Source: Candidatus Daviesbacteria bacterium (GTDB taxonomy: Bacteria; Patescibacteriota; Microgenomatia; Daviesbacterales; UBA10151). From it: a stretch of DNA of 64,000 bases. Position numbers and translations under genes: made by a program. Under the pieces are notes generated by a model, which worked only from the letters and a program-made list of their open reading frames with translations, searched no databases and was not told where the DNA came from. Shown here piece after piece: positions 10,503-62,084 of this stretch (position 1 is its first letter; each line of letters opens with the position of its first letter). The stretch spans positions 63,391 through 127,390 of the forward strand of contig JACOXI010000005.1 in assembly GCA_016176335.1 (NCBI GenBank). Reading direction: 5' to 3'.

Positions 10503-11598
10503 TCTCTTGGGCCAGCAAAGGCTCCCACATAGCACCTGTGGCGCTCATTACACAATCTGCCCCAGCATCCTTATATTCAAAATAATCTTCTGCTTTGGTA
10601 ACTCCTCCCACACCAATTACGTTTATCGTAAATCGTAAATCGTTTATCGTTTTTCGCAGTCTCTTCACCATATCCAAGCCTGCCCATTTTATTGATGCTC
10701 CGCAAACCCCAGAGCGGGCTCTGTTTTTGCCGAGCAGCGCCTGATTTCCATCTTTATCAACAATCTCCGCTTGAATGGTATTGATGGAAGCAATAGCCTG
10801 GGCATATTGTTCACCAATTTCCACTAACTTCTTCAGATCTTCATCGCTTTGGTAATACCCCACTTTCAAAATTAAAGGAGTGACCCCAATTTCTTCTCTT
10901 ATAGCCTGACAAACCCTCTCTGTCGTCTCCAGGTTGTAACAAACCAACCCTTCATTTCCGATATTAGGACAGGACAAATTCACTTCCAAGATTTTTGCGT
11001 TTGTTTGCATCGATTGTTTTGCGGCTAAAGCATAATCCCTAACAAACTCATCCGTTGTTTGATTCTCCCTGACAGTTCCCATAAAACTTAAAACCAGAAC
11101 TTGTCCTCTTCCCGCATAAGAAATTGCCTTCTTAACATCCTCCTGCCAAACTGCCGGTTCCTTGGAAGGCACTCCAAAAGAATTAGTTATGGAAATCGGC
11201 TGCGAGTAATTATTGTCTGCCAAAAGAGGATTTTGGGCCTTCTCCAAAGTCAAATCTCCCTCAACTTTTACAGCTAAAACATTGGGGAAAGGATGGCAGG
11301 GAAAAACATCTGACCTGACTGTTTTATAGACACAAATATCAAAGCCTTTTTCAAAAGCAGCTTTACAGAATTTAGAATTGATTAAAGGCCCAGCTGGAAT
11401 ACCAAATGGCAGATGCACTTTTTGTCCTAAGAAATTGAACCTTGGTTCACCCTGAGCGAAGTCGAAGGGCTTCCCATTTGCAAATGCCCCAAACGGCCCC
11501 TGATCATAATTATCTTCATAGGATTTATTTGGATCGTAGAAAGGATCTTTAAGCATTAGGGGTATTTTAACACAAAAGTTAGACTTTCTTCTTTGCAT
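10483..11598 (-). CDS. pyrD: dihydroorotate dehydrogenase
   Basis: 371 aa. Motifs GIPAGP, LSCPN, IGVGGV. Convergent with pyrC and overlaps it by 20 nt. Carries an in-frame heptamer-repeat insert (KTINDLRFTINV). Confidence 0.75.
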   Translation of the reverse strand: MQRRKSNFCVKIPLMLKDPFYDPNKSYEDNYDQGPFGAFANGKPFDFAQGEPRFNFLGQKVHLPFGIPAGPLINSKFCKAAFEKGFDICVYKTVRSDVFPCHPFPNVLAVKVEGDLTLEKAQNPLLADNNYSQPISITNSFGVPSKEPAVWQEDVKKAISYAGRGQVLVLSFMGTVRENQTTDEFVRDYALAAKQSMQTNAKILEVNLSCPNIGNEGLVCYNLETTERVCQAIREEIGVTPLILKVGYYQSDEDLKKLVEIGEQYAQAIASINTIQAEIVDKDGNQALLGKNRARSGVCGASIKWAGLDMVKRLRKTINDLRFTINVIGVGGVTKAEDYFEYKDAGADCVMSATGAMWEPLLAQEIRKMGK

Positions 11599-26064: not shown

Positions 26065-27375
26065 ATGCACAAAACTCATCTTAAGGAAAAGCATGACCAC
26101 CAAACTTTAAAATTTCCACAAGGTTTCTTATGGGGTGCTGCAACGAGTGCCCACCAGGTTGAGGGCGGAAATATTTACAATGACTGGTGGAAGTGGGAAC
26201 AGGATAGGCCCCCCCATCTTCGTTCAGGAGCAGCCTGTGATCAATATAACCGCTACAGGGAAGATTTTGAGATGGCCAAGGATCTAAACCACAACGCCCA
26301 CAGGCTGTCAATTGAATGGTCCAGAATTGAGCCTCGCGAGGGTGAATTTAACCTTGCCGAGATTGAGCATTATGTTAAGTTACTTAAGCACCTTAAGTCA
26401 CTTAATATGACAGTCATGTTAACCCTATGGCACTTTACACTGCCTGGCTGGTTAGCGGACTGCGGCGGGTGGGAGAACTTTAAAGCCCCTTTTTACTTTG
26501 AGCGTTTTGTTAAAAAAATTGCGCCTGAACTGGGAGAATACGTAGATTTCTGGGTGACCATCAACGAGCCGGGAGTTTATATTTACGAAACTTACATTGA
26601 AAGGGTTTGGCCGCATTCCAAAAAAAGCCTGATTGGCCAGATTAAAACTTATTTAAACCTTGCCTCCGCTCATAGAAAGACTTACAGATTTCTACATTCC
26701 AAAAATGCTTTGGGCAAACCAGTCGGCATGGCCCAAAACATCATGTCATTTGAACCTTACCACAAACATTCAATCATGGAGCAGCTGGCTGTTGTTGTAA
26801 ACGATATATTCACCAATCATCTTTTTTATTTTTTAACCCGAGGCACGCACGATTTCCTGGGAATAAATTACTATTTTCATGCCCGTTTAAAACACCAAGG
26901 TTTAATACCCCAAAAGGTAGACTTTTCTCCTCCAACGCACGAGGTGTCCGATTTAGGCTGGGAAATATACCCCGAGGGTCTTTTTGATGTTTTGAGTGAC
27001 CTTTCCGATGATGTGCCTATTTATATCACCGAGTGCGGCATTGCCTCAACCAACGACGATCGGAGAAACCGCTTTCTTGTAGCCTACTTACAAGAGGTTG
27101 TGAGGGCCATAAAATCAGGTGTAAATGTCAGAGGATTTTTCTATTGGTCTTTAATTGATAATTTTGAGTGGCATTTGGGATTTACACCTAGATTTGGTCT
27201 TATTGAAGTAGATTATGAAACCCAAAAAAGGCACATTCGGCCATCCGCATTAACCTTTGCGGAAATTATTGCTGCAAACGGCATTCCTCACACTTTGATG
27301 AGGTTTTTGGGACACACAGTCACATCAGAAGAGGTTTTAAAAAGATTTCAGAAAATGGAACCACAGCATAAATAA
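26065..27375 (+). CDS. glycoside hydrolase family 1 (beta-glucosidase-like)
   Basis: 436 aa. Acid/base TINEP and nucleophile ITECGIA (ITENG-type) motifs. N-terminal FLWGAATSAHQVEG. Confidence 0.8.
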   Translation: MHKTHLKEKHDHQTLKFPQGFLWGAATSAHQVEGGNIYNDWWKWEQDRPPHLRSGAACDQYNRYREDFEMAKDLNHNAHRLSIEWSRIEPREGEFNLAEIEHYVKLLKHLKSLNMTVMLTLWHFTLPGWLADCGGWENFKAPFYFERFVKKIAPELGEYVDFWVTINEPGVYIYETYIERVWPHSKKSLIGQIKTYLNLASAHRKTYRFLHSKNALGKPVGMAQNIMSFEPYHKHSIMEQLAVVVNDIFTNHLFYFLTRGTHDFLGINYYFHARLKHQGLIPQKVDFSPPTHEVSDLGWEIYPEGLFDVLSDLSDDVPIYITECGIASTNDDRRNRFLVAYLQEVVRAIKSGVNVRGFFYWSLIDNFEWHLGFTPRFGLIEVDYETQKRHIRPSALTFAEIIAANGIPHTLMRFLGHTVTSEEVLKRFQKMEPQHK

Positions 27376-27489
27376 TGCCAAAACTCAAATGTCAAAACTT
27401 AAAACTTAAAGATTTTAGCGCGTAGCGCGAACTTGTTCAGATTTGAGTTGTAGATTTGCGATTTGAGATCTAAGATTTAAGATAAACAA
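27376..27489. repeat. same heptamer-repeat palindromic element family, centre gcgcgtagcgcg
   Basis: aaactcaaatgtcaaaacttaaaacttaaag ... tagcgcgtagcgcga ... agatttgagttgtagatttgcgatttgagatctaagatttaagat. Confidence 0.75.
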
Positions 27490-31242: not shown

Positions 31243-31359
31243 CATAACTCTGGCCAGATTATACACCATCCAGTGGGGAAAACAGATAGTTGCCAACTAA
31301 TAATTAATCTGTTATACTTGACAAATTGCCTCCAATAATATGGAGGATTTTTTAGACCC

Positions 31360-32308: not shown

Positions 32309-32368
32309 TCGGCTCTTCGTATATCGAATATTGGTCATCCGATAAACGATAAACGATATTCCAAACAA

Positions 32369-32805: not shown

Positions 32806-33723
32806 ATGGGCAAGACAAAAGTAGCCATCATTGATGATTCAGCGCAAGAAGAGAATAGAGAATCAAGAATAAAGAATAAAGCCTCTAAGAAAAGGGCTAA
32901 AGCGACCGAAGTGAAGTCTGATGCAGCTTCTCGACTGTTTGAGCCAGGCGAGGATGGCCAAAAGGCTCAAGCTTTGACGAGCGTGACGCCATCCGAGCCG
33001 ATTCCGCCAAAGGCGGAAGGCGAGTTGGAGAAGCAAATTCAGACGAACGAGAGAGTACAACCTAAAAAACCTCAAAAACCAGGCAAAGCTAAGCCCCGCT
33101 CCAAGAAATACCAAGAGGTCGTAAAAGATTTGGATAGAACTAAATCCTACCCTTTAGGTGAGGCTATAGAACTTAGTAAAAAACTGTCCTATTCTAAATT
33201 CACAGGTACACTTGAAGCACATATCAATACCACTCAAACAGGAATCCGTGGTTTAGCCTCCCTTCCCTATTCTTCAGGTAAAAAATTACGCATCCTGGTC
33301 TTTGGAAAAGGTGCCAAAGACGCAGGTGCAGATCTGGTGGGTGATGATTCCACCATTGAGGCTATCTCCCAGGGCAAAATTGATTTTGACCTTCTGATAA
33401 GCACTCCTGAATGGATGCCAAAGCTTGCCAAAGTGGCAAGGGTTTTGGGACCTAAGGGGCTCATGCCCAATCCCAAAAATGGCACCATCACAGACGACCT
33501 CAAAAAAGCAGTGGAAGGATTTCAAGCCGGAAAAACAGAATACAAAACAGAGGCCAAAGCAGCAGTAATCCACCTTGGGCTGGGAAAGTTGAATCAACCT
33601 ACCGAGGAGTTATCTGCCAATGTTCAAACTTTGCTTCAAACTTTAGGCAAAACCAGAGTTAAAAAAGTCACTCTTTCCCCCACCATGGGACCATCAGTTA
33701 AAGTTGATCTAGCTTCCATGTAA
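32806..33723 (+). CDS. rplA: 50S ribosomal protein L1 with ~90-aa N-terminal extension
   Basis: L1 core starts near KKYQEVVK...EAIELSKK. N-terminal Lys/Glu-rich extension carries a GC-rich stretch. Confidence 0.85.
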   Translation: MGKTKVAIIDDSAQEENRESRIKNKASKKRAKATEVKSDAASRLFEPGEDGQKAQALTSVTPSEPIPPKAEGELEKQIQTNERVQPKKPQKPGKAKPRSKKYQEVVKDLDRTKSYPLGEAIELSKKLSYSKFTGTLEAHINTTQTGIRGLASLPYSSGKKLRILVFGKGAKDAGADLVGDDSTIEAISQGKIDFDLLISTPEWMPKLAKVARVLGPKGLMPNPKNGTITDDLKKAVEGFQAGKTEYKTEAKAAVIHLGLGKLNQPTEELSANVQTLLQTLGKTRVKKVTLSPTMGPSVKVDLASM

Positions 33724-33729
33724 AATAGT

Positions 33730-34317
33730 TTACCCTTGCGAATGAGTTTTGGCTATTTTCTCTATAGCTTCCTCTACATATTCTTCTATCTGTCTTGCTA
33801 ACCTTATGTGAACTTTAAGCACTGCCTGCTCGTCAGTCGGATGAACATAACCAGTTATGCCATAAAAAGGCGGTTTTAACAAAGGGGGCAAACTGTTAAT
33901 AACCCCAGAAAGCCAGGTGGCTCTGATCAAGCTATGCGGATCAGGAATCTCCTGCTCTGGGAAACCAACGTACTCCGGCAAGGTATAAACATTACCGGCC
34001 TCTCCTATTCCTGTTAAAGCTCTGACTTGCCTTACCTGGTCACGCTCAAAACATAACACCAGATCGGAATTTCCTAAAAGTTCGGCTGTTGCCCTTGTCG
34101 GTATATGGTGCTTGGGAGGTTGATATCCCAGTCTCTCCAAAGCAGAACGCATTTCATAGCTTAGATCCATAAAAGGAGGTTCAATTAAACCGGCCGACGC
34201 ACACTTAACACCAAGAAGACCTTTTTCTTCAGCCATAGCTTTAGCAATGCATTCGGCAACCGGACTTCTGCTTATATTGGCCCAGCAGACAAAGGTCACG
34301 CTGTTGATCTGTTCCAT
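33730..34317 (-). CDS. low-molecular-weight protein tyrosine phosphatase / ArsC-fold
   Basis: 195 aa. P-loop CX5R(S) motif VCWANISRSP at the N-terminus. Confidence 0.55.
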   Translation of the reverse strand: MEQINSVTFVCWANISRSPVAECIAKAMAEEKGLLGVKCASAGLIEPPFMDLSYEMRSALERLGYQPPKHHIPTRATAELLGNSDLVLCFERDQVRQVRALTGIGEAGNVYTLPEYVGFPEQEIPDPHSLIRATWLSGVINSLPPLLKPPFYGITGYVHPTDEQAVLKVHIRLARQIEEYVEEAIEKIAKTHSQG

Positions 34318-37136: not shown

Positions 37137-40100
37137 ATGGTTAGCCCAAAAAAATCTCTGGTGGCCATTATTGGCCTGATAGCAGTTTCCCTGTGGATTT
37201 TAATTCCCCAGTCTGCTTTTGCCACTTCAAGTAAATATTATGATTTTGGCCCATATTATGGCGGTTCTTCTGTTTTAGGTTTTTCCTTCTCCAACTTGGA
37301 AAACCTGCCTGTCCCTCAAATTGCGGATAGCCTGATGCCACCTAAAGCAGGCGGTATTTTGCCTGACAATCCTTTTTATGCTTTGGAAAAGGTGGTGGAG
37401 AATGTCCAACTTACTTTTACATTTGATCCTGTAAAAAAAGAGCAGTTGAGGCTTGATATTGCTAGCGAAAGATTATCTGAAGCTAAAACTTTAATGGATC
37501 AAGGTAAAACCCAAGCAGCCTCTCAAGCCCTGGATGATTACGGCCAGACCTTAACTGCCCTCAGCCAAAATCTAGCGGCCATTGCTCAAAGAACCGATCC
37601 TGCTGCCCAAGCTTTAGTCAACAAAGCAGAGGAGGTATCTGCTACCCAGGCAGTGGTTACTCAAGCCTTAAGTTTAACTTCTTCTCCTGCTCAAGCTGAA
37701 AGCTGGACCCAAGCCACCAACATCACCAGATACTCTCTTGACAAGGTAGCCGAGGCCAAAGGCGAACCTGCTATACCTACGGAGTTTTCTTCCAGTATCC
37801 AACAACTCAAAGAACAGGGGCTGATTTCGGAAGAAGAAAGTAATAAGTTATACAGTTTCAAAAACCGAAGCGAAGTCAGGGACGAGCTTAACAAACTCTC
37901 TTCCTCGGGCCAATTTCCTATTTCGGAAGCTGTTAGATTAGACGATGCTGTCACCAAATATTTCCCGGATGTACAGAAACAGTACCTAACTAATTTACAG
38001 GTTGTAGAATTAAAATCCTATCAAACTTTACCCCAGCCTGACAGCAAAACGGCAGAAGAGCTGAAAAAGTGGCAAGCTAATCCAGCTACCCCCCCATCAA
38101 ATGATATCAAACCATATTTGTGGTATAACCGAGCCCAGGATTTAGCCCGCGATGTTGACCTGTCGAACTTTTCACCAACCCAGCAGGGAGACTTAGTCAA
38201 ATTCTACCCTCAAGCTGTTCAAACTAACCCAACTTATTCCCCTCCGCCCAGCCCTTCTCCTGTACCAGCTGACGCCTCGCCTGCCCCCTCACCCACCTCT
38301 GCTGTTCCTGCCTCACCTACACCTTCCCCCACACCTCCTGCTGCCGAACCTTATCTGCAAGGTACAGGTGGAGCTTTGCCTGGTGAGCCTTTCTATTTTA
38401 TAAAGCAGTGGGGAGAGGGTTTAACCTATACCTTTACTTTTGATCCGGCCCAGAAAGCCAGACTGAGGATGCAGGAGGCTGAACGCCGTCTGGCTGAAGC
38501 CGAAGCACTGGCCAATGATCCCAAGAAAGCCACCTTATATGAATCTACCCTCAAAAGTTACCAGCAAACTCTCGCTGATGCTTCAAACATCGTCAAAAAT
38601 CTGAAAGATACCAAAGCATCTGAAGAGGCGGCAGCCAGATTAGAAGCTCAGGCAGCCAGACATGAGGTGGTTTTTGAAAAAGGGCTCTTGCCTCCTCCTC
38701 CTCAAAATCCCACACTGACCTCTGATGTTATCAGGACAGCGGAGGATGCCATGGACAGAAGCGCTGATGTTTTGGACCGACCGGCGCTGCCGCCTGTCTT
38801 GGCCTCTCGTCTGCAAGATCTCAAAGCCCAGGGCCTGATCCTGCCTGAAGAAGCAGAAGATTTAACCCGATCTGCTTCGCGAGAAGAGGCGCGGGAAAAA
38901 ATTAGAAAATTGGTTGAGCTTAACACTTTTCCCCCGGCTGATGCCAAAAAACTGGATGAAGCCCAAGCTGTAGTTTCCCCTGCAGACTACAATCAGCTGG
39001 TGGAGGTCAGGAAAGTTGAGGAGTTGCAAAGTTTGAGATCAGTCCAAACTGATCTGGCTCAAACTCCCACCTTAAGATCCACAGCCACCACTTTAGCCCA
39101 AAAGGAGGTGGCTTTAACTAACTCTTTTGATCCTACACTGATCAAACCAGAAGATCTAGGAGGTAAAGAAAACTTAATTAAAGCCTATGAAAGACTGACA
39201 GCGGTTCCTCGTCCTATTAATGGCGGGCAATTTGGTCCCGAAGTCACACCTGGCGCTCAACCATCAGCTACTCCCAGACCTCAAGATGCGGTTTTGTCTG
39301 CTTGTCCTGAGGGGGCTACCTTCAAACAATCTGAAGGCTGTATTTGGGCAGATAATGGCAAGCGGATTAATGATTATGACCAGTATAAATGTGAAGGCCC
39401 AAGACAATATTATTCTTTTGCTGTTAAGAAATGTGTGGCTTCTGACTCAACTCGCGGTTATCAAGAAGATGCCCAGCCAATCTGTCCAGTAGGTTATTCC
39501 TGGAACTGGCAGGCTCAAAGCTGTCAGACAGCAACAGGCGGGATTCTTCCTTTCCCCAGCCCCTCGCCTGTAGTAGACCCTATTAATGATGAGGAACGAG
39601 AGGCCAGGTCAAAGAGTTGTCCTGAGGGAGCCTCCTATCAACCGCCCAATGGCTGTGTTTGGGATAAAACTGGCAAATCAGTTTATGATCCTGAGCAATA
39701 TAGATGCGGTCGAGGTCAATACTATTCATTTGAGGAAGGGAAATGTGTTGCCTCGCCAAAAGAGGGAGAACCTTATCCCAAAAATACCACTCCAGTTTGT
39801 AAAGAAGATGGAGCTTATTGGAGTTGGAACGAAGGAAAATGTATTCAAGCTGTTTTTCCATCAGAGCAAAAAGGAGGACCGGGGGCAATTATAATTGATG
39901 AGTTTAGACCTCCTTTTATCGCTCCCAACAGTCCATTCTATATTATTAAACAAGCAGCGGAAAGAGTACAACTTGCTATAGCATTTACTGCCCCAGCCAG
40001 AGAACGAGTCAGCTTGTCTCAAGCTAAAGAAAGATTAATTGAAGCTGCGGACGCTCTAAAAAGAAATGATGAAGGAGCTGTTAAAAAAGCTTTAGACACT

Positions 40101-41801
40101 TATACTTCTATGATGCAGGATATTGTATCTGACGTATCTAAGGAACAGCTGACAGAGGGGGCCAAAATCGAAATCGGGAAGCTGTTAGCCGAGAAATCAG
40201 TTGAGCAAAACCTGCTATTGCAGAAGCTTCAAGCTTTGGCCCCAAGTGCACAAGATACGGCCATCAGTGCTGCGGTATCAGCCACCATCTTAGGGGTGGA
40301 TAAAGCAGCAGATGTTGCTGGCGAGCCGCCAATTCCAGATGAACTCAGAAGCAAAATTGAAGCTTTGCCGGAAAAGATGATCTCAGAAGAAGACAAAAAG
40401 AAACTTTTGGAGATGAAGTCTCGAGTTGAAGCCAGACTCCAAATAGGAGGCTTGGTAGCAAACGGGGCTTTAACCCAAACTGACACCAGCTTCTTAAATG
40501 AGGATTTTGATGCTGTTGATCAAAACGCCAGAATCAAGGTGGAGGAACTCAAAAAACTAGAGGAGATTGCCGATGCTGCCGAGACCAAAGATAAACTGGA
40601 AGAAAAGATAGGTAAGAACGAAGAAATTGCCCAAAAACTCCAAGACTTTGAGAAAACCTTTGAGCCGGGCAAAGAGGTACCAGCTGAAATCCGTCCTTAT
40701 ATCCGGCTAACCCGCATTAACGAGATAGCCCAAACCGTCAGACCCGATACTATCAACCTTGAAGACTTCTCAAACCGCAAGGATCTTATGTTGGCAGTAG
40801 CCACTCTACAGGAAGAATACAGGCCCACCATAGATGCTTTAAGACAAGTAGAAGACTTTAGAAGAAGAAATCCCAATGCTGCCTTGCCGCTTACTTTGGC
40901 CCGGGTTGCGGCTTTATCCGTAAGCCTTGGGGTAAGAGAAAAAGCCGGACCATGTTATCTACCAACACCCCTCTTCCCGGCCAACACCCCTTGTCCGGCG
41001 CCGGGAGCAGCCATCCCCATTAGTTCCTTTACCGGGATCGGGCCTACCATTGTTGATGAGTTTCGCCCCGGCTGGCCAGGTTCAGCATATCCGTCAGCCT
41101 ATCAAACAGGTCCTACTACCGATAAAGATGGCAATCCCTTAGTCTATGGCCAAGGGCCTCAACCAACCAGCGCCGGGGTTTGTCCTTCAGGTTCTCACTG
41201 GATGTATGATAGTGGTGGCTGGTGTATGTCAAACAGTGGCAACTACAGTTCCTCCTATTCCTACACGCCTTCTGGCACTGGTTCCGGTTACACCCCTTAT
41301 AGTCCTTATTACACTGCCCCGGGAGCGCCTCCGGCAAGCTATGGCTACCCAGGATCCGGTTCTTATTCTAACTTCATAAACACTTACTCGCCTCCAAATT
41401 ACTGGAGTCCTGCCCCCACCAATTACACTACCACCCCACCTACTGGCACGGTGCCAGGATCTGGACCCAGGCCAACTGCTCCTGGTCAGTGTCCATCAGG
41501 GTATCATTGGATGTCTGATTCCGGTGGCTGGTGTATGGCTGACGGACCAACCTATGTACCCAGCGGCTCACCATACAATTATCCGGCGGGTACAACTACC
41601 AGTGGCGTGCCGTCAGGAAGCTTGAATTGCGGCTCCCAGAGCTTTAATCCGGCTACCGGAAGGTGCAATGATGGCGCCTGCCCCGGAGGCTTTAACTGGG
41701 ACGGCTCAAGATGTGTAGCCAGCAGTCCCAGTTACTATTCTCCTAACTTAAACCGGATATTACTGGGATGGCAGAGGCTGTATTCGCACAAGCCCTACTG
41801 A
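37137..41801 (+). CDS. giant secreted modular cysteine-rich protein (N-terminal 1554 aa before frameshift)
   Basis: Signal peptide. Three ~55-aa modules (P.NPFY.L/IK...TFTFDP...A.ERL.EA). Four Cys-rich ~45-aa modules (CPEG...C.W...GK..YD...Y.C....YYSF...KCVAS). G/S/Y/T-rich tail with CPSG[SY]HWM.DSGGWCM repeats. Confidence 0.7.
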   Translation: MVSPKKSLVAIIGLIAVSLWILIPQSAFATSSKYYDFGPYYGGSSVLGFSFSNLENLPVPQIADSLMPPKAGGILPDNPFYALEKVVENVQLTFTFDPVKKEQLRLDIASERLSEAKTLMDQGKTQAASQALDDYGQTLTALSQNLAAIAQRTDPAAQALVNKAEEVSATQAVVTQALSLTSSPAQAESWTQATNITRYSLDKVAEAKGEPAIPTEFSSSIQQLKEQGLISEEESNKLYSFKNRSEVRDELNKLSSSGQFPISEAVRLDDAVTKYFPDVQKQYLTNLQVVELKSYQTLPQPDSKTAEELKKWQANPATPPSNDIKPYLWYNRAQDLARDVDLSNFSPTQQGDLVKFYPQAVQTNPTYSPPPSPSPVPADASPAPSPTSAVPASPTPSPTPPAAEPYLQGTGGALPGEPFYFIKQWGEGLTYTFTFDPAQKARLRMQEAERRLAEAEALANDPKKATLYESTLKSYQQTLADASNIVKNLKDTKASEEAAARLEAQAARHEVVFEKGLLPPPPQNPTLTSDVIRTAEDAMDRSADVLDRPALPPVLASRLQDLKAQGLILPEEAEDLTRSASREEAREKIRKLVELNTFPPADAKKLDEAQAVVSPADYNQLVEVRKVEELQSLRSVQTDLAQTPTLRSTATTLAQKEVALTNSFDPTLIKPEDLGGKENLIKAYERLTAVPRPINGGQFGPEVTPGAQPSATPRPQDAVLSACPEGATFKQSEGCIWADNGKRINDYDQYKCEGPRQYYSFAVKKCVASDSTRGYQEDAQPICPVGYSWNWQAQSCQTATGGILPFPSPSPVVDPINDEEREARSKSCPEGASYQPPNGCVWDKTGKSVYDPEQYRCGRGQYYSFEEGKCVASPKEGEPYPKNTTPVCKEDGAYWSWNEGKCIQAVFPSEQKGGPGAIIIDEFRPPFIAPNSPFYIIKQAAERVQLAIAFTAPARERVSLSQAKERLIEAADALKRNDEGAVKKALDTYTSMMQDIVSDVSKEQLTEGAKIEIGKLLAEKSVEQNLLLQKLQALAPSAQDTAISAAVSATILGVDKAADVAGEPPIPDELRSKIEALPEKMISEEDKKKLLEMKSRVEARLQIGGLVANGALTQTDTSFLNEDFDAVDQNARIKVEELKKLEEIADAAETKDKLEEKIGKNEEIAQKLQDFEKTFEPGKEVPAEIRPYIRLTRINEIAQTVRPDTINLEDFSNRKDLMLAVATLQEEYRPTIDALRQVEDFRRRNPNAALPLTLARVAALSVSLGVREKAGPCYLPTPLFPANTPCPAPGAAIPISSFTGIGPTIVDEFRPGWPGSAYPSAYQTGPTTDKDGNPLVYGQGPQPTSAGVCPSGSHWMYDSGGWCMSNSGNYSSSYSYTPSGTGSGYTPYSPYYTAPGAPPASYGYPGSGSYSNFINTYSPPNYWSPAPTNYTTTPPTGTVPGSGPRPTAPGQCPSGYHWMSDSGGWCMADGPTYVPSGSPYNYPAGTTTSGVPSGSLNCGSQSFNPATGRCNDGACPGGFNWDGSRCVASSPSYYSPNLNRILLGWQRLYSHKPY

Positions 41802-42588
41802 TACTTCTTACTATTCTCCCAGCTCGTACTCGCAAGGTTGCACTCCAGGTTATTACTGGAATGGCAGTAAATGTGTGGCAGGTAGCAATGAAGGTTCAGG
41901 GTGGTCAGATACAGCTGCCAGATCCCAATCCTGGTGTCAACCTCCCTCAAACGGCTGTGGCTCTAATTCTTATTGGGATTATGGTAGCTGTTACTGCAGC
42001 AGCTCAACCACTTATTATGGAGGTAGTGGTCCCTCACCCAGCAATCAATGCCAGGGTCTAAGCTGCGGTGGAGGCGCATGGTTAGATTACTCAACCTGTA
42101 GTTGTAAGTATTCAGGTGGTTCTGGAACTAGTTCTACAGGATCTACCATCACTTGTTATCCTCCTTCCGCAGGTTGTCCAGGCGGCTGGTATGATTATGG
42201 CACTTGCAGCTGCAAAACCAGCTACTCCGGCACAAGTTCCGGCTCAGGAGGAACAACTACCACCGGTTCTTGTCCTTCAGGCTCCCATTGGATGAGTGAT
42301 AATGGTGGTTACTGCATGTCTGATACCGGAGGAGGCACATCCTCTTCCGGCTCTACCACCACTTCATCCGGAGGATCAACATCAAGCGGATCCTGTCCTT
42401 CGGGATATCATTGGATGAGCGATAATGGTGGCTGGTGCATGCAAGACGGCGGAGGCTCGACCTCAAGTAGCGGCTCAACAACTACTACCAGTGAACCGGC
42501 TCCGACCACTACCACCACTACCACATCTGAACCGGCCCCCACACCTACCAGTTCCGAACCTGCGCCAACACCTGCTCCCAGCCCTTAG
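41752..42588 (+). CDS. C-terminal continuation of the giant protein in the +1 frame (frameshift near 41745..41760)
   Basis: The frame holding ORF 41875..42588 encodes TGYYWDGRGC...CTPGYYWNGSKC, then CPSGSHWMSDNGGYCM and CPSGYHWMSDNGGWCM repeats identical in type to the upstream ORF. Ends in a T/P-rich tail. Confidence 0.55.
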   Translation, partial: TGYYWDGRGCIRTSPTDTSYYSPSSYSQGCTPGYYWNGSKCVAGSNEGSGWSDTAARSQSWCQPPSNGCGSNSYWDYGSCYCSSSTTYYGGSGPSPSNQCQGLSCGGGAWLDYSTCSCKYSGGSGTSSTGSTITCYPPSAGCPGGWYDYGTCSCKTSYSGTSSGSGGTTTTGSCPSGSHWMSDNGGYCMSDTGGGTSSSGSTTTSSGGSTSSGSCPSGYHWMSDNGGWCMQDGGGSTSSSGSTTTTSEPAPTTTTTTTSEPAPTPTSSEPAPTPAPSP

Positions 42589-42801
42589 TCCTTAATGTCA
42601 GTCAATACGACACATTGACAAACATGACATCATAAGTTAAAATAATTTGGCTTAAGACAGTGAGTGGAGCGAAGCGACATCCTGAGCATAGTCGAAGGAT
42701 GCTTTACACCATAAATCTCACCGAGGCAGTTTAGTATATCGTAAGATTGAATATCGTATATCGGAAAACCGATAAACAATAAACGATTAACGATAAACCA
42801 A

Positions 42802-42826
42802 AAACGCCTCAGAAAGGCGTTTTTTA
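42802..42826 (+). terminator. rho-independent terminator-like hairpin plus T-run abutting the rplJ start codon
   Basis: aaacgcc-tcagaaa-ggcgttttttaa, then ATG of rplJ 2 nt later. A-run on the 5' side makes it bidirectional in form. Confidence 0.5.
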
Positions 42827-42827
42827 A

Positions 42828-43364
42828 ATGGCTAAAACTAAACAACAAAAAGAGCAAGCAGTACAACAAATACAAGAAAAGCTGGGCAAGGCCAAAGCTA
42901 TAGTTTTTGCTGACTATAAAGGCTTGACCATGAAGCATTTATCCGATTTAAGAAATAAATTGCGTGATGTTAATGGCGAATTCAGTATAACCAAAAATAG
43001 CTTACTTGAACGTGCTCTTCCCGCCTCCAACTTTGAAGGTCCAACAGCCACTCTTTTTGCGTATGATGATCAAATTACCCCTATTAAAATTTTGGTCAAA
43101 GCGCTAAAGGATGCTGCCATTGGTAAAGTTAAGGCGGGGTTTTTAGGAGTTGATGTCCTGGATGAAAACAAGATTCTTACACTGGCCAGTCTGCCCTCTA
43201 AAGATGAACTGAAAGGTCAAGTTGTGGGACTATTGGCAGCTCCACTTCAAGGTATGGTATCAGTACTACAAGGAAATCTAAGAAATTTAGTGCACGTAGT
43301 GCGCGAACTTCGTTCAGTATATACATTATCAGAAATTCAAAAAGCGAAAGGAGGTGAAAGTTAG
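42828..43364 (+). CDS. rplJ: 50S ribosomal protein L10
   Basis: 178 aa. Start MAKTKQQKEQAVQQIQEKLGKAKAIVFADYKGLTMKHLSDLR. Confidence 0.85.
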   Translation: MAKTKQQKEQAVQQIQEKLGKAKAIVFADYKGLTMKHLSDLRNKLRDVNGEFSITKNSLLERALPASNFEGPTATLFAYDDQITPIKILVKALKDAAIGKVKAGFLGVDVLDENKILTLASLPSKDELKGQVVGLLAAPLQGMVSVLQGNLRNLVHVVRELRSVYTLSEIQKAKGGES

Positions 43365-43440
43365 TATATCGTAAATCGGTTATCGTATATCGGAAACACA
43401 CAAACCATAAACGATAAACCATAGACGATCAAACAACCAT

Positions 43441-44088
43441 ATGGCAGATGATCAACAAAAACAAGATCAACAATCAGAACAGCCTAAAACTGAAGAATCA
43501 ACAGAGGGAGCGAAGGCTGCCGCAGATTCTCAACTGTCAGAGGCAGGCGAGATCAGCAGCGAGAGCACAAGTTCTGACGTGCACGAGCCTGGTCGAGCTG
43601 GTGGCGAACCGCCAGCTGGCGGTGAGCCAGCCGAGTTGGAGAATCAAGGCCAGCCGAGCGACCAAAGCGCACCAGCCAAGAAAAAACCTGCTCCTAAACC
43701 AGTTTCAGCAAACTTAGAAAAGATAATTGAACAAATTGAAAAATTATCAGTTCTAGAACTGGCTGATTTAGTACATGCTTTAGAGGATAGATTTGGGGTT
43801 TCAGCATCCGCACCAGTTATGGCAGCAGGACCAGCAGCCGCCTCGCCTTCGGCGGGCGAGCCAACGGAGGAAAAAACTACTTTCAATGTGGTTTTAACAG
43901 CAGCAGGTGCCAATAAAATTGCAGTGATAAAAGCTGTCAGGGAATTAGTCCAGACTTTAGGGTTAAAAGAGGCAAAAGATTTGGTGGAGTCAGCTCCAAA
44001 ACCTGTTTTGGAATCAGTTAATAAGCAGACTGCTGAAGAGGCAAAACAGAAGCTTACGGCAGCAGGAGCGACAGTAGAACTTCAATAA
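43441..44088 (+). CDS. rplL: 50S ribosomal protein L7/L12 with ~90-aa GC-rich N-terminal extension
   Basis: L12 core from [28 protein letters not shown] to ...AAGATVELQ. Acidic/Pro-rich N-terminal extension. Confidence 0.85.
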
Positions 44089-44454: not shown

Positions 44455-44650
44455 ATATCTCAAAACTCAAATCGCAAAACATCAATGCTGCCTTCGGCAG
44501 AACAAAAATACAATTCAAATCTAAAATCTTTTAACGGTTTTGAGATTTAGGATGTAGATTTGACCCATTCGGCTTCGTTCAGGGTCATCCTGAGCATTGT
44601 CGAAGGATGCCATTTGAGATCTAAGATTTGAGATTTAGCACTTAAGTACT
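44455..44650. repeat. heptamer-repeat arms flanking a conserved core (ggtcatcctgagcattgtcgaaggatgc)
   Basis: Arms tctcaaaactcaaatcgcaaaac ... gatttgagatctaagatttgagatttag. Core has hairpin catcc/ggatg. Related cores at 42667..42702 and 61174..61220. Confidence 0.75.
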
Positions 44651-45238: not shown

Positions 45239-46030
45239 TCAACCCTTCAGCTGAGCTCTCAAAAGCAAATACAGGTATTGTATTAAAGCCAGCTGCCTTT
45301 TGATCCTCCATGGTTGAAGACACAACCTGAACAACCACTCAAATCCTAAATGTTGTATCCAAATTGGAGCTCTGGGAACCTTGCCGCTTATTATATCAAA
45401 TGCTCCCCCCACCCCCATAGCCACTTTAACAGGAATTTTGGGCAAATTTTTAGCAATCCATTTTTCTTGTTTTGGAGGACCAAGCGCCACAAACAAAATA
45501 CCTGTTTGTGGCAGATTTAAGATATAAGATTTAGGATTTATGATTTTCTCTCTATTCTTAAATCTTAAATCATAAATCATATCTCCATCATCATTAAAAA
45601 TCCCAACTTCACTGGCAAACGAGACTTTAAGTTTTGGATATTTCCTCTTCAAGCACTCAGCCGTTTTTTCTGCTATCTTCCCTCTCCCTCCTAAAAAGCC
45701 TGTTGTAAAACCCTTTTCTTCGGCCATCTTTACCAACCCTTCCATTACATCTATACCAGGGGTAGTCATAACTATATCACCAGTAAGTTTCAACCCTACC
45801 CCATCAGGAACTGCTAAATCCGCGTTATTTAATATCCTTTTAAATACAAGGTCTTTTTGGGCCGCGACGATAAACTCCGGATTAGGAGTTACTATGTAAT
45901 GTTTACCGGGATTCCAAATCCAATGCTCTACTATCGTAAGCGCTTCATTAAGACTTACATCATCAATTTTGATTCCCAGAACATCTACTTTCATAAATTC
46001 TCCAATACCCCAAGTGTTTCTTTTGCGCAT
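45239..46030 (-). CDS. tagA: WecB/TagA/CpsF-family glycosyltransferase
   Basis: 263 aa. Family motifs (IVTPNPEFIV, DLAVPDGVG). Contains an in-frame heptamer-repeat insert (YDLRFKNREKIINPKSYILNL). Confidence 0.75.
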   Translation of the reverse strand: MRKRNTWGIGEFMKVDVLGIKIDDVSLNEALTIVEHWIWNPGKHYIVTPNPEFIVAAQKDLVFKRILNNADLAVPDGVGLKLTGDIVMTTPGIDVMEGLVKMAEEKGFTTGFLGGRGKIAEKTAECLKRKYPKLKVSFASEVGIFNDDGDMIYDLRFKNREKIINPKSYILNLPQTGILFVALGPPKQEKWIAKNLPKIPVKVAMGVGGAFDIISGKVPRAPIWIQHLGFEWLFRLCLQPWRIKRQLALIQYLYLLLRAQLKG

Positions 46031-51907: not shown

Positions 51908-53035
51908 ATGGATCAAAAGGATCAGGAAAACCTCCCTTCGCCTCCACCCTTAACCAGGCGGGAACTTTTTGCAAACCTTGCCCACTTTCAAAGGTCATTT
52001 GAAATAAGTGACCAAACCCAAGCTCAACGTCAACAATCCCCTCCCGAACCTTCTCCCACCCAAGAAACATTAAGTAGAAGATCCTTCTTAACAGGGGTGG
52101 CATCATTGTTAGTTGTTGCCCTGGCCGGATTTCTGGGTAAAAAAATGGGTGAAACTAACCCCTCTCCTTCCACATCACCCACCCCGGCTGTCATCCCTCC
52201 GCTCCCTGATAAGGATACCTCTTCAGGGAAACCGCTTGAGGATGAATTAACTTTAAAAAGCGAGCAGCCTACTCCAATAGCAGAGACTCCTCTATCGTCT
52301 TGGGAAAAGTCACTCAAAAACCATCCTCTTTTCTCCAAAAACACTCCCCAAGAACTAAAAACAGCAGCAGATTTGGTAAGTAAATTCTTCCAATATTATC
52401 AAAGCGAGCCCGGTGTAGAGAAAAAAATTAATAACACCATGGCTTACCGGGACAAAGCTTCCGGTCTGGCTAACCTGCTGGGTTTCTACCCTGACTCCTT
52501 TGCCAGAAAGATTATCTTACCGCTGATTTTTGCTGAAAGCAGCGGCAAGGCAGACGAAATCAGTCCTGCCGGCGCAGTGGGATTGTGCCAGCTGATGCAA
52601 GATGCTTTAGATTATGTCAGGAAGTTTGCTAAAGCATCAGATATTAAAAAATTAGGCATAACAAGTAATACTACCTTAGAAGCTTTAAGAGGAGACCTAA
52701 ATAAAAATATTGGCACAGCTCTGCTCTATCTACATTTACTCAATAATATTTTCGAAGATCCCAGTTTGGTAGTACTGGCTTACAACCGGGGTGGCGGGGA
52801 TCTGATAAAAATAATCAAACAGGAGTTATTGAGTGACAATTGGAACAAAGACCAAAAAGCAGAAGTAACCGGCATTACACCCGACCATCCTGGCCGGCTT
52901 GGCTACTTCATCCGACTCACCGGTATAAATGCTACCAGGCTTATTCAAAAACACCCTCGAAGCTTTGTCCCCGAGGCAAGGAACTATATTTTCAAGATTG
53001 CTGCCGCTGAAAAGATTCTCCAAACCACAGCTTAA
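51908..53035 (+). CDS. membrane-anchored lytic transglycosylase (SLT domain)
   Basis: 375 aa. SLT catalytic region (AESSGK...AGAVGLCQLMQDA, AYNRGGG). Confidence 0.7.
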   Translation: MDQKDQENLPSPPPLTRRELFANLAHFQRSFEISDQTQAQRQQSPPEPSPTQETLSRRSFLTGVASLLVVALAGFLGKKMGETNPSPSTSPTPAVIPPLPDKDTSSGKPLEDELTLKSEQPTPIAETPLSSWEKSLKNHPLFSKNTPQELKTAADLVSKFFQYYQSEPGVEKKINNTMAYRDKASGLANLLGFYPDSFARKIILPLIFAESSGKADEISPAGAVGLCQLMQDALDYVRKFAKASDIKKLGITSNTTLEALRGDLNKNIGTALLYLHLLNNIFEDPSLVVLAYNRGGGDLIKIIKQELLSDNWNKDQKAEVTGITPDHPGRLGYFIRLTGINATRLIQKHPRSFVPEARNYIFKIAAAEKILQTTA

Positions 53036-53516
53036 TCTCTTTTTTTGCTTCTTCTTCTGATCCTGATGCATGAATCAAATTATAAACAGGTCTTTCTTCC
53101 ATATTTGCCTTAAGAATTGAATCTGTCCCTAAATCACCCCTGATAGTGCCTTTTTCAGCACTTGATGGATCGGTAAAACCAGTCACCTCACGAGCAACAG
53201 ACACTGCATTTTTTCCTTCCAAAAGCAAAGCCACAATTGGACCGGAAGTGATAAATTTCCGAAGCCATGTCACTACTTTTCTGCCCTGATCCTGGGCGCT
53301 TTTAACTTTTTGACCGGCAGCAATAGTTTTCTCACCAATTGATCGCAAATACGAAGGCTCCATGGGATAATGCTTTTCTACCAAATCATGCGGAGCCATC
53401 AGATCACGCCTCTTGACCACCTTCAAACCTGCTTGCTCATATCTTTCTATTATTTCCTCGGTAAAACCACCCTGCACTCCATCCGGCTTAATTATTATCA
53501 AAGTCTGCTGTAGCAT
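52992..53516 (-). CDS. ndk: nucleoside diphosphate kinase
   Basis: 174 aa. Start TLIIIKPDGVQ, active site NLIHASGS. Confidence 0.85.
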   Translation of the reverse strand: MLQQTLIIIKPDGVQGGFTEEIIERYEQAGLKVVKRRDLMAPHDLVEKHYPMEPSYLRSIGEKTIAAGQKVKSAQDQGRKVVTWLRKFITSGPIVALLLEGKNAVSVAREVTGFTDPSSAEKGTIRGDLGTDSILKANMEERPVYNLIHASGSEEEAKKEIKLWFGESFQRQQS

Positions 53517-53519
53517 ATC

Positions 53520-53601
53520 AAAGTATTATACATAAAAAATCTCAAATGGTAAATCTCAAATGTCAAAACTAGATTTGCGTTTTGCGATTTGAGTTTTGAG
53601 A
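53520..53601. repeat. same heptamer-repeat palindromic element family
   Basis: aaatctcaaatggtaaatctcaaatgtcaaaactagatttgcgttttgcgatttgagttttgagatt. Confidence 0.75.
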
Positions 53602-54585
53602 TTACTTAATCTCCACATCGTCAACCATAGTTGACCCGTCCTCAAATACCGTGACTACTGCAAACCTTGGTAATTGCGGGTTTCGCTCGGTTCCAACCGC
53701 TCCGATTGTGACCATAGACAGGTTGGTTTCCGGTTCGTTGTATTGGCTGAAATAGTGGGTATCGCCTGCAAAGACTTTTTTCACCCCTACAAGCGCAAAA
53801 ATTAAACTTCTTGCCTGATTTTTTAACTCCTTTTCTACCCTCCCCATTATATGGTCGGATGAGGGGTGAAAAAGCGGTTCATGGACAAACACAAATATAG
53901 CCTTAACTTGCTCATCTTTTGATCTTTCCAGCTCACCTGCAACCCACTTAAGTTGTACCTCATCTATCCCTAGATAATTATCACTGTTGTCAAGCAGTAT
54001 AAATTTAAAGTTATGTAAACTGAAAGATTGATAAGTAGGACCAAAAATTTGTCTGAAATTTGTCAGCGGAGGTTGATTTTTATCTCTTGAGTCCCACAGA
54101 TCATGATCTCCGGGAATCAGAAAGTAACGCAAGTTTGCCTCATCAAACTCTTTTTTGGCTTTTTGCATCTCATCCAAAGTACCTACTTCTGTATAATCCC
54201 CCAACCCGATAACAAATTGAATATCCGGAAAGATCTGTTTGGCTTGAGAGATTGCTTTTTGCAGGTTGTTATTGTCACTGTGTGAATCCGCTACCAGCAA
54301 AAATTTAAAGACGCTCTTGGGACTTGTTTTGGGAACGGGGGTGGAAGCAGTTAGATTTTGGGGCAATAATTTTTGATCTCCAATTTTAACCTTGGAAAGC
54401 AAGGTTAATGCCTCATTCGCGACTGATTTTGGATCAAGCTTTAAAGGATCCAAACCGGAAAAGTGCTTGTACGCGGAATATACCCCGCCTAAAAGTATAG
54501 TAAATATAATAAGGCTTAATATAAACCTGAATAAAATAAATATGGGATTGGCAGATTTTCTACCGCTGTGTTTTCTAAACATCAC
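53602..54585 (-). CDS. calcineurin-like metallophosphoesterase (membrane-anchored)
   Basis: 327 aa. Motifs LVADSHSD, GLGDYTEVG, IPGDHDLW. Confidence 0.7.
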   Translation of the reverse strand: MMFRKHSGRKSANPIFILFRFILSLIIFTILLGGVYSAYKHFSGLDPLKLDPKSVANEALTLLSKVKIGDQKLLPQNLTASTPVPKTSPKSVFKFLLVADSHSDNNNLQKAISQAKQIFPDIQFVIGLGDYTEVGTLDEMQKAKKEFDEANLRYFLIPGDHDLWDSRDKNQPPLTNFRQIFGPTYQSFSLHNFKFILLDNSDNYLGIDEVQLKWVAGELERSKDEQVKAIFVFVHEPLFHPSSDHIMGRVEKELKNQARSLIFALVGVKKVFAGDTHYFSQYNEPETNLSMVTIGAVGTERNPQLPRFAVVTVFEDGSTMVDDVEIK

Positions 54586-56201: not shown

Positions 56202-56340
56202 AAGTTAATAATAGCATATCTCAAATGTCAAAACTCAAATGTCAAATCTGAATCTTAAAACTTAAAACTAGACTAAAACAGTTTTGAGATTTAAGTTTTA
56301 GTTTTGAGTTTTGCGATTTGCGTTTTGAGTTAACATTAGC
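56202..56340. repeat. palindromic composite intergenic element built from degenerate heptamer repeats (tcaaatg arm / cattttga arm)
   Basis: Left arm tctcaaatgtcaaaactcaaatgtcaaatctgaatcttaaaacttaaaac, centre tagactaaaacag, right arm ttttgagatttaagttttagttttgagttttgcgatttgcgttttgag. The arms are reverse complements of each other. Confidence 0.8.

Positions 56341-60791: not shown

Positions 60792-62084
<1,293 letters not shown>

What the first reader, a model, noticed from the sequence alone, without database searches (positions are those of the whole stretch)
42802..42830. Strong bidirectional terminator hairpin ends 2 nt before the rplJ start codon
aaaaacgcctcagaaaggcgttttttaa-ATG. A canonical intrinsic terminator this close to the rplJ start leaves no room for a promoter or RBS between them. 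So either rplJ is translated from read-through transcripts with a structured, occluded RBS (an attenuator-like control), or its promoter lies upstream and the hairpin acts as an attenuator.
Basis: seen in the sequence. Interest (0 to 1): 0.5.

Follow-up and report, generated by a model that had tools for sequence, protein, structure and literature searches.

The report
Ribosomal protein L10 leader attenuator hairpin
The hairpin in front of rplJ is most likely the terminator of a known self-regulating leader RNA, one that lets ribosomal protein L10 shut off its own gene; here it is a compact version in a Patescibacteria genome that makes little use of ribosome-binding sequences, so it is largely ordinary.

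Summary
A 10-bp hairpin (42800-42824) with a 6-U run (42820-42825) ends 2 nt before the rplJ ATG (42828).

It is the 3' element of a ~178-nt rplJL leader. The leader starts at a conserved TTGACA-17-TAAAAT promoter (42615-42643) and contains the L10(L12)4-binding kink-turn helix (42650-42727). Rfam L10_leader (RF00557) matches 42633-42835 at 35 bits (E 8e-4, below the 44-bit gathering score). A model built only from other Patescibacteria leaders hits 42647-42730 (E 2e-5).

Truncated folds predict an antiterminator: GAGGC of the L10 site pairs with GCCUC of the terminator's 5' arm. All four close relatives that carry a terminator keep this pairing.

The inferred mechanism is L10(L12)4-dependent transcription attenuation, as shown experimentally in Bacillus subtilis.

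The "no room for an RBS" puzzle goes away. SD-like motifs are not enriched before genes in this window (8/62 versus 6/62 control) or before 78 related rplJ genes. In 23 of 79 rplJ loci (78 relatives plus this window) a terminator-like hairpin ends within 8 nt of the ATG.

Bidirectional function is unsupported.

Verdict: a divergent new member of a known kind; low to moderate interest.

The parts
42615..42643 (+). Promoter-like site, TTGACA (42615-42620), 17-nt spacer, TAAAAT (42638-42643). The predicted transcription start is about 42649-42650.
   Evidence: It matches 11 of 12 consensus positions. The same TTGACA-17/18-TAnAAT lies at the same distance from GCTTAAGAC in all 8 lineage members (alignment A1).
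42650..42727 (+). L10(L12)4-binding kink-turn helix, which acts as the anti-antiterminator. Its parts are GCUU/AGGC stem, AAGA loop, GUGAG/CUCAC stem, bulged C at 42722, and UAA-containing internal loop at 42712-42716.
   Evidence: Rfam RF00557 matches at 35 bits, E 8e-4, with AAGACAG and CCGAGG matched exactly. Custom model R1 hits 42647-42730 with E 2e-5. The helix covaries in 31 relatives.
42668..42708 (+). A 41-nt insertion at the tip of the L10-site helix. It carries a REP-like hairpin, CATCCTGAGCATAGTCGAAGGATG.
   Evidence: It is absent from the close relatives. The repeat recurs at 44581-44610 and 61189-61218 (family D14).
42723..42732 (+). 5' strand of the predicted antiterminator, GAGGC-A-GUUU. 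It overlaps the 3' strand of the L10 site.
   Evidence: In truncated-transcript folds, 42723-42727 pair with 42806-42810 and 42729-42732 pair with 42802-42805.
42734..42798 (+). Hairpin with 7-nt periodicity (TATCGTA... / ...GATAAAC). It forms the upper part of the antiterminator helix.
   Evidence: Fold results. The same repeat family lies before rplK and in the rplJ-rplL spacer. L001, L171 and L195 have only 9-14 nt at this position.
42800..42825 (+). Its 5' arm (42802-42810) doubles as the 3' strand of the antiterminator.
   Evidence: It aligns with the 3' terminator stem of RF00557.
42828..43364 (+). rplJ, encoding ribosomal protein L10 (178 aa).
   Evidence: Pfam PF00466, E 9e-21.
43441..44088 (+). 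rplL, encoding ribosomal protein L7/L12 (215 aa, including an N-terminal acidic extension). It is the second gene of the regulated operon.
   Evidence: Pfam PF16320 and PF00542. The extension is conserved in L001-L003.

Best explanation
The hairpin is the intrinsic terminator, that is the expression platform, of an rplJL leader RNA of the L10_leader type.

Transcription starts about 42650 from a conserved sigma-70-type promoter. The first 78 nt fold into the kink-turn helix that mimics the 23S rRNA site of the L10(L12)4 stalk complex.

When L10(L12)4 is scarce, the GAGGC of that site (42723-42727) instead pairs with GCCUC (42806-42810) in the 5' arm and loop of the terminator. This closes a long antiterminator helix whose upper part is the inserted 7-nt-periodic hairpin. 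RNA polymerase then reads into rplJ-rplL, and the U-rich 3' arm is left single-stranded just before the AUG.

When free L10(L12)4 accumulates, it binds and locks the kink-turn helix. GAGGC is then unavailable, the terminator forms, and transcripts end in the U run just before the start codon.

What is shown and what is inferred:
- Shown by sequence and comparison: the leader's identity, the promoter, the terminator, and the alternative pairings.
- Inferred from homology to the experimentally studied Bacillus subtilis system: L10 binding and actual termination.

The start codon needs no SD because this genome, and the rplJ genes of relatives, show no SD enrichment.
For: - rplJ and rplL identity.
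- Rfam L10_leader covers 42633-42835 over the full model (35 bits, E 8e-4). The conserved AAGACAG, UAA and CCGAGG are matched, and the hairpin aligns to the model's terminator stem.
- The same family passes its gathering score directly upstream of rplJ in 16 of 40 related Patescibacteria loci.
- Model R1, built from 31 other Patescibacteria leaders and excluding this lineage, gives one significant hit in the window, 42647-42730 (E 2e-5). It also hits all 7 lineage relatives in front of rplJ.
- The helix covaries: 94% of cells are paired, and 45 cells have changes on both sides against 13.9 in shuffles, with 0 of 500 shuffles reaching the observed value.
- The promoter is conserved in all 8 lineage members.
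- The transcript truncated before the terminator's 3' arm folds into the GAGGC:GCCUC antiterminator. At full length, the terminator state is only 2.5 kcal/mol more stable.
- L001, L171, L195 and L002 predict the same kind of antiterminator even though their terminator sequences differ (GCGCC/GGCGC versus CCUCGC/GCGAGG).
- In the wider Patescibacteria set, the terminator's 5' arm is complementary to the 5' strand of the L10 site and covaries with it: CCACAGAC/GUCUGUGG, CCGCAGAC/GUCUGCGG, ACACCGUA/UACGGUGU. In 18 of 42 leaders the match is at least 6 nt.
- A terminator-like hairpin lies within 150 nt upstream in 63 of 79 rplJ loci. It ends within 8 nt of the ATG in 23 and abuts the ATG in 8.
- In L001 the upstream gene is divergent, so the hairpin there cannot be that gene's terminator.
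- The mechanistic precedent is in PMC4538822. The terminator-containing Rfam alignment and the family's wide distribution are described in PMC3616713.
Against: - The Rfam score is below the curated gathering threshold (35 versus 44 bits). The whole sub-lineage scores only 30-35 bits.
- The antiterminator core is only 5 G-C-rich pairs. Its complementarity is modestly significant per sequence (p about 0.035-0.08 against shuffled arms), and the five sequences represent about two independent terminator types.
- Canonical hairpin-plus-U terminators are no more frequent in this window than in shuffles. How well this organism's RNA polymerase responds to them is therefore unknown.
- No transcript 5' or 3' ends, no binding data and no 23S rRNA sequence from this organism were available.
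Confidence: 0.78

Rival explanations
1. The hairpin is mainly a translational operator. On full-length mRNA, a hairpin 2 nt from the AUG blocks 30S binding when it is folded. L10(L12)4 would control the hairpin/antiterminator equilibrium after transcription, with little or no real termination.
For: Three members of the same lineage (L003, L092, L186) have no terminator, and their L10 site ends 4-6 nt before the ATG. That arrangement implies direct translational repression. Canonical terminators are not enriched in the window. E. coli regulates rplJL at the level of translation (PMC4538822, introduction).
Against: A run of 5-7 U immediately after the stem is kept in every terminator-bearing relative. 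A purely translational hairpin would not need it. The hairpin aligns with the terminator of RF00557. The two modes are not mutually exclusive.
Confidence: 0.1
2. The hairpin is an ordinary, constitutive terminator or insulator for the upstream co-directional gene (stop at 42588). It has no regulatory link to rplJ.
For: The upstream ORF is on the same strand, and no other hairpin-plus-U site lies between its stop and rplJ.
Against: A conserved promoter and an L10-binding RNA lie between that stop codon and the hairpin. A constitutive terminator at this position would silence rplJL. The hairpin tracks rplJ whatever the upstream gene is, including the divergent upstream gene in L001. It overlaps a conserved alternative pairing.
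Confidence: 0.07
3. The hairpin is a chance A/T-flanked hairpin, or part of one of the repeat elements that litter this genome's intergenic regions, and has no function.
For: Of 60 shuffled windows, 15 contain a hairpin of this class. The leader does carry two repeat-element insertions.
Against: The hairpin sequence is not a member of any repeat family found in the window. Equivalent hairpins with compensatory stem changes occupy the same position in L171, L195, L002 and L001, and in most wider relatives.
Confidence: 0.03

Closest known systems
Rfam RF00557 L10_leader, as characterised in Bacillus subtilis rplJL (Yakhnin et al. 2015, PMC4538822)
   Same: It lies 5' of rplJ. It has a kink-turn helix with a UAA internal loop that mimics the 23S rRNA L10 site. 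It has three mutually exclusive elements: the protein-bound helix (anti-antiterminator), an antiterminator, and an intrinsic terminator. The logic is autogenous transcription attenuation.
   Different: - It scores below the Rfam gathering threshold (35 versus 44 bits).
- The terminator's U run ends 2 nt before the start codon, so there is no leader peptide and no SD. In B. subtilis a leader peptide and an SD for rplJ follow the terminator.
- The antiterminator uses the 3' strand (GAGGC) of the protein site directly.
- Two repeat-element hairpins are inserted in apical loops.
- rplJL is an isolated operon, about 9 kb from rplKA.
Escherichia coli rplJL leader (L10(L12)4 translational repression)
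   Same: It has the same regulator and the same kind of rRNA-mimic binding site in the 5' UTR of rplJ.
   Different: E. coli acts on translation through long-range refolding that sequesters the SD, and has no terminator. The window has a terminator and no SD. The terminator-less relatives L003, L092 and L186 resemble the E. coli logic more closely.
L10 leaders of other Patescibacteria (loci L004-L078 here)
   Same: They share the overall architecture. Many likewise place the terminator 0-8 nt from an SD-less ATG.
   Different: In most of them the terminator's 5' arm (GUCUGUGG) pairs with the 5' strand of the L10 site (CCACAGAC), not the 3' strand. The window's lineage has GCUUAAGACAG in place of CCACAGACAG.
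E. coli S10 operon leader (L4-mediated attenuation)
   Same: A ribosomal protein promotes termination at a leader terminator of its own operon. This rests on established knowledge; the work is cited in the reference list of PMC3616713.
   Different: The protein and the RNA are different and there is no sequence relationship. The similarity is one of mechanism only.

Membership tests
Rfam RF00557 L10_leader | Located in the 5' UTR of rplJ, on the same strand | tested here: met
   The match at 42633-42835 ends at the rplJ ATG at 42828.
Rfam RF00557 L10_leader | Covariance-model score at or above the curated gathering score (44 bits) | tested here: not met
   The score is 35.0 bits, E 8.3e-4, in a 921-nt targeted scan, and there was no hit at the gathering threshold. 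Lineage relatives score 30-34 bits. Sixteen of 40 more distant Patescibacteria loci do pass.
Rfam RF00557 L10_leader | Kink-turn consensus (AAGACAG ... CCGAGG) with a bulged C next to the stem | tested here: met
   AAGACAG (42654-42660) and CCGAGG (42721-42726) match exactly. C42722 is unpaired between the CUCAC strand and the G42723:C42658 pair in the predicted fold. The independent model R1 gives E 2e-5. The helix covaries in relatives. The three-dimensional kink-turn geometry was not tested.
Rfam RF00557 L10_leader | Internal loop with unpaired adenosines (UAA) above the stem | tested here: met
   CCA-UAAAU-CUCAC at 42709-42721, aligned to the model's UUAA. TAA is conserved in 7 of 8 lineage members.
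Rfam RF00557 L10_leader | Bound by the L10(L12)4 complex | not testable with these tools
   This needs a binding assay with the purified complex.
B. subtilis-type rplJL transcription attenuator | Overlapping, mutually exclusive anti-antiterminator, antiterminator and terminator structures | tested here: met
   Truncated and constrained folds give the alternative structures, with a difference of 2.5 kcal/mol between the two states in the window. The same holds in L001, L171, L195 and L002. These are predictions only.
B. subtilis-type rplJL transcription attenuator | Leader peptide and SD between the terminator and rplJ | tested here: not met
   Only 2 nt separate the U run from the ATG.
B. subtilis-type rplJL transcription attenuator | L10(L12)4 increases termination at the leader terminator | not testable with these tools
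   This needs in vitro transcription or reporter fusions.
Canonical intrinsic terminator | Uninterrupted G+C-containing stem followed directly by a U run | tested here: met
   The stem has 10 bp (4 G-C), the loop 5 nt, the U run 6 U, and the hairpin folds at -11.1 kcal/mol.
Bidirectional terminator between convergent genes | Convergent transcription units on both sides | tested here: not met
   rplJ and rplL downstream are on the plus strand, and no credible minus-strand gene reads into the hairpin.
SD-sequestering translational operator (E. coli type) | A functional SD inside the regulated hairpin | tested here: inconclusive
   Only a 4-nt AAGG (42815-42818) is present, 9 nt before the ATG. 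SD-like motifs are not enriched in this genome window (8/62 versus 6/62) or before related rplJ genes (14/78 versus 15/78). The 16S rRNA 3' end is not in the window.

The most novel reading that the evidence does not exclude
One switch may gate expression at two levels in an SD-less organism. Because the terminator abuts the AUG, the same L10-controlled choice between antiterminator and terminator would decide two things: whether polymerase stops just before the start codon, and, on read-through mRNAs, whether the AUG is exposed behind a single-stranded U-rich tract or blocked by the refolded hairpin.

In addition, a 7-nt-periodic repeat hairpin of the kind scattered through this genome's intergenic regions has been co-opted as the body of the antiterminator helix. 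Sister lineages switch freely between this platform and a terminator-less platform in which the binding site abuts the AUG.
Probability: 0.3. Interest if true: 0.45.

Novelty: new member of a known kind. Interest (0 to 1): 0.3.

Why it matters
It extends a well-understood feedback circuit for a ribosomal protein into Patescibacteria (the candidate phyla radiation). It shows how that circuit is packaged in a genome that makes little use of Shine-Dalgarno sequences: the terminator is pressed against the start codon, and the antiterminator pairs directly with the protein-binding site.

For annotators, it explains a terminator that looks misplaced. It also shows that Rfam's L10_leader threshold misses this sub-lineage. 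It does not open a new question in the field.

Tried and rejected
- The Rfam gathering-threshold scan of the whole window found only tRNAs. The leader appeared only in the permissive targeted scan.
- I first attributed the sub-threshold Rfam score to the two insertions. This was rejected, because relatives without insertions also score only 30-34 bits.
- I looked for the antiterminator type used by most Patescibacteria, in which the terminator's 5' arm pairs with the 5' strand of the L10 site. In the window this gives only 4 nt (TTGG), no better than shuffles.
- Internal promoter or leaderless rplJ: no TAnnnT -10 box lies 7-13 nt before the ATG (reading), and the scan found no promoter-like site after 42643.
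- A functional SD inside the hairpin is considered unlikely.
- Several hits to the GATAAAC repeat pattern fall inside coding sequence (10323-10353, 10624-10655, 14291-14314). I set these aside as probable chance or coding matches.
- Of the 120 loci returned by the metagenome 15-mer scan, only 4 were real leaders.
- Literature searches on SD usage in Patescibacteria and on heptamer hairpins returned nothing specific. The closest result was the TAACTGA heptamer direct repeats of Beggiatoaceae (PMC4679880).
- An Rfam scan of the secE-nusG-rplKA region found no known leader.

Full report
**1. Observation**

The sequence at 42800-42830 reads AAAAACGCCU-CAGAA-AGGCGUUUUU-U-AA-AUG. This is a 10-bp stem with 4 G-C pairs, a 5-nt loop and a run of six U (42820-42825). 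Two nucleotides then separate the U run from the ATG at 42828.

That ATG opens a 178-aa ORF that is ribosomal protein L10 (Pfam PF00466, E 9e-21). The next ORF, 43441-44088, is L7/L12.

The hairpin alone folds at -11.1 kcal/mol. It is symmetric, with an A run 5' and a T run 3'. This is why the consensus scan lists it on the minus strand.

As a bare pattern it is not statistically exceptional. Under lax criteria the window holds 4 terminator-like sites against 4.2 in shuffles. In the stricter class (>=9 pairs) it is the only site in the window, but 15 of 60 shuffled windows also contain one. The case for function therefore rests on context and comparison.

**2. What surrounds it**

The 239-nt spacer between the upstream stop codon (42588) and rplJ contains a near-consensus promoter. 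This is TTGACA (42615-42620), 17 nt, TAAAAT (42638-42643), matching 11 of 12 positions.

The spacer RNA is unusually structured, with a z-score of -5.8 against dinucleotide shuffles.

A permissive Rfam scan of 42560-43480 gives one credible match:
- It is RF00557 L10_leader at 42633-42835, over the full model, at 35.0 bits and E 8.3e-4. This is below the 44-bit gathering score.
- The family's signature nucleotides are matched exactly: AAGACAG, the UAA internal loop and CCGAGG.
- The finding's hairpin aligns to the terminator stem and U run that form the 3' end of the Rfam model.

**3. Relatives**

Relatives found with the L10 protein place the window in Patescibacteria. The closest are 60-66% identical (L001-L003) and the rest are around 40% or lower.

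RF00557 passes its gathering score immediately upstream of rplJ in 16 of the 40 loci scanned.

A metagenome scan for the lineage-specific 15-mer GCTTAAGACMGTGAG added four true leaders: L092, L171, L186 and L195. In all eight members of this sub-lineage, the TTGACA-17/18-TAnAAT promoter and the motifs GCTTAAGACAGTGAG and TAAATCTCACCGAGGC are conserved. L003 carries a compensatory GUAGG/CCUAC version of the stem.

The terminator-bearing members of the sub-lineage score only 30-35 bits with Rfam, even those without insertions. The sub-threshold score therefore reflects lineage divergence.

As an independent test I aligned the L10-site helix of 31 other Patescibacteria leaders, leaving this sub-lineage out.
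- The helix covaries strongly. 94% of cells are paired, 45 cells have changes on both sides against 13.9 in shuffles, and 0 of 500 shuffles reach the observed value. Slid controls give 30-45% paired.
- The covariance model built from this alignment (R1) finds exactly one significant site in the 64-kb window, 42647-42730 (24.6 bits, E 2e-5).
- The same model finds the site in front of rplJ in all seven sub-lineage relatives, with E values from 5e-11 to 9e-5.

**4. The terminator is a recurrent part of this leader**

- Among 79 rplJ loci (78 relatives plus the window), 63 have a terminator-like hairpin within 150 nt upstream. In 23 it ends within 8 nt of the ATG, and in 8 the U run touches the ATG.
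- In the sub-lineage, L171 has ttttttaaATG, L195 has ttttttaATG and L002 has tttttaATG, the same arrangement as the window. In L001 a repeat-element insertion pushes the terminator 62 nt away from the ATG.
- The stems differ through compensatory changes: CGCCU/AGGCG, GCGCC/GGCGC and CCUCGC/GCGAGG.
- L003, L092 and L186 have no terminator, and their L10 site ends 4-6 nt before the ATG.
- In L001 the upstream gene is divergent. The hairpin therefore belongs to rplJ and not to a preceding gene.

**5. Mechanism**

In B. subtilis, L10(L12)4 binds the kink-turn helix (the anti-antiterminator). This prevents an antiterminator from forming and so promotes termination at a leader terminator (PMC4538822). 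The Rfam alignment includes that terminator for several phyla (PMC3616713).

The alternative structures are predicted in the window as follows.
- A transcript truncated before the terminator's 3' arm folds with G42723-C42727 (GAGGC, the 3' strand of the L10 site) paired to G42806-C42810. G42729-U42732 pair with A42802-C42805. These pairs close a long helix whose upper part is the 42734-42798 hairpin.
- At full length, the state with the L10-site helix and the terminator folded is only 2.5 kcal/mol more stable than the antiterminator state.
- The same CGAGGC-to-terminator-arm pairing is predicted in L001, L171, L195 and L002, even though their terminator sequences differ.
- Per sequence, the complementarity is only modestly better than with shuffled arms (p 0.035-0.08).

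In the wider Patescibacteria set the logic is the same but the register differs. There the terminator's 5' arm is complementary to the 5' strand of the L10 site and covaries with it: CCACAGAC/GUCUGUGG, CCGCAGAC/GUCUGCGG and ACACCGUA/UACGGUGU. The match is at least 6 nt in 18 of 42 leaders.

The following steps are inferred and not shown: L10(L12)4 binding, real termination by this organism's polymerase, and the transcription start site.

**6. The missing RBS**

- SD-like 4-mers occur upstream of 8 of 62 ORFs in the window, against 6 of 62 control positions. Many genes instead have a TATAAT-like box 7-13 nt before the ATG, which suggests leaderless or very short-leader mRNAs.
- Upstream of the 78 related rplJ genes, SD-like motifs are no more common than in controls (14 versus 15). 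The 15 nt before the ATG average 79% A+T.
- rplL also lacks an SD.

The absence of an SD before rplJ is therefore the norm in this genome. The AAGG in the hairpin (42815-42818) is probably incidental.

A consequence follows, and it is inference only. With the antiterminator formed, the 17 nt before the AUG are single-stranded and U-rich. With the terminator formed on a full-length mRNA, the AUG sits 2 nt from a stem. The same switch could therefore also gate translation.

**7. Insertions**

Compared with its closest relatives, the window's leader carries two insertions, both in apical loops.
- The first is a 41-nt REP-like hairpin at the tip of the L10-site helix (42668-42708). Its repeat recurs at 44581-44610 and 61189-61218.
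- The second is a 65-nt hairpin with 7-nt periodicity in the loop of the antiterminator (42734-42798). The same repeat family lies in front of rplK and in the rplJ-rplL spacer.

These positions are structurally tolerant. The first insertion accounts for the window's lower R1 score.

**8. Rival explanations**

- A purely translational hairpin remains possible. It is compatible with the terminator-less relatives, but it does not explain the conserved U run.
- A constitutive terminator for the upstream gene is contradicted by the promoter and binding site lying between that gene and the hairpin, and by L001.
- A chance origin is contradicted by the positional conservation with compensatory stem changes.
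- Bidirectional function has no convergent gene to act on.

**9. Verdict**

The element is a divergent member of the known L10 leader class that falls below the Rfam threshold.

Its lineage-typical peculiarities are:
- the terminator abuts an SD-less start codon;
- there is no leader peptide;
- the antiterminator pairs directly with the protein-binding site;
- repeat elements are inserted in apical loops.

It is a new member of a known kind, of low to moderate interest.

Noticed in passing
window 56228-56328, 53533-53608, 45514-45578, 15353-15406, 27366-27486, 61085-61245, 44461-44636; also L002, L007, L012, L021, L033, L043 upstream of rplJ: Many intergenic regions hold long AT-rich hairpins built from two inverted arrays of tandem 7-nt units (for example CTCAAAT/GTCAAAA, GATTTAT, CTATACC). 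The unit sequence differs from locus to locus, but the 7-nt period is kept. Relatives carry the same kind of element at variable positions in their rplJ leaders. I found no description of these for Patescibacteria; the nearest literature is on heptamer direct repeats in Beggiatoaceae (PMC4679880).
   Followed up: partly
window 32316-32360, 42734-42798, 43366-43432: One heptamer-hairpin family (TATCGTA... / ...GATAAAC) sits just upstream of three ribosomal-protein genes: rplK, rplJ (inside the leader) and rplL. The rplJ-rplL spacer is 76 nt here but only 3-6 nt in L001-L003, so the copy there is an insertion inside an operon.
   Followed up: partly
window 42673-42702, 44581-44610, 61189-61218; L001 2940-3000: A REP-like hairpin, CATCCTGAGCATAGTCGAAGGATG, recurs three times in the window. 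Related copies lie between the terminator and the ATG in L001. Similar small hairpins (for example CTTCGCTAAAGCTTCG) occupy the apical loop of the L10-site helix in other Patescibacteria (L053, L057, L077, L171).
   Followed up: partly
window 43441-43710 (N-terminus of rplL): L7/L12 carries an N-terminal acidic, low-complexity extension of about 90 aa ahead of the normal dimerisation domain. The extension starts with a conserved MADD(T/Q)QKQ and ends with KKAPKPVSA. Its length varies: 25 aa in L003, about 55 in L002, and about 85 in L001.
   Followed up: partly
window 32806-33723: The L1 ORF is 305 aa, but Pfam Ribosomal_L1 matches only residues 129-296. This is either another N-terminal extension or a start codon called too far upstream.
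   Followed up: no
whole window (62 ORFs): SD-like motifs are not enriched upstream of genes. Many genes have a (TGn)TATAAT-like box only 7-13 nt before the ATG, for example at 21134, 23167, 24159, 33730-34317(-) and 52992-53516(-). This suggests widespread leaderless or near-leaderless mRNAs. The ~178-nt rplJ leader stands out against this background.
   Followed up: partly
window 31329-31352: The only other plus-strand hairpin-plus-U site in the window is CCTCCAATAATATGGAGG-ATTTTTT. It lies 8 nt before an ORF starting at 31361 (SecE-like by eye, not tested) that precedes nusG-rplK-rplA. It begins about 4 nt after the start predicted from a TTGCCA-17-TGtTATACT promoter (31290-31318). Its arms are CCUCC and GGAGG. 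No Rfam family matches it.
   Followed up: partly
L003 2953-3000, L092 1587-1650, L186 3690-3752: Three members of the same sub-lineage lack the terminator altogether. The GAGG of the L10 site lies 6-7 nt before the ATG in L092 and L186 (GAAG in L003). This implies direct translational repression, and shows that the expression platform is swapped between close relatives.
   Followed up: partly
window 37137-41801 and 41875-42588: A very large (1554 aa) secreted-looking protein is followed by a 237-aa ORF. They share Cys-rich repeats, CPSG(Y/S)HWMSD(S/N)GG(W/Y)CM, and Pro/Thr-rich linkers. The two ORFs may be one gene interrupted by a frameshift or a stop codon. The second ORF has no Pfam match.
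   Followed up: no
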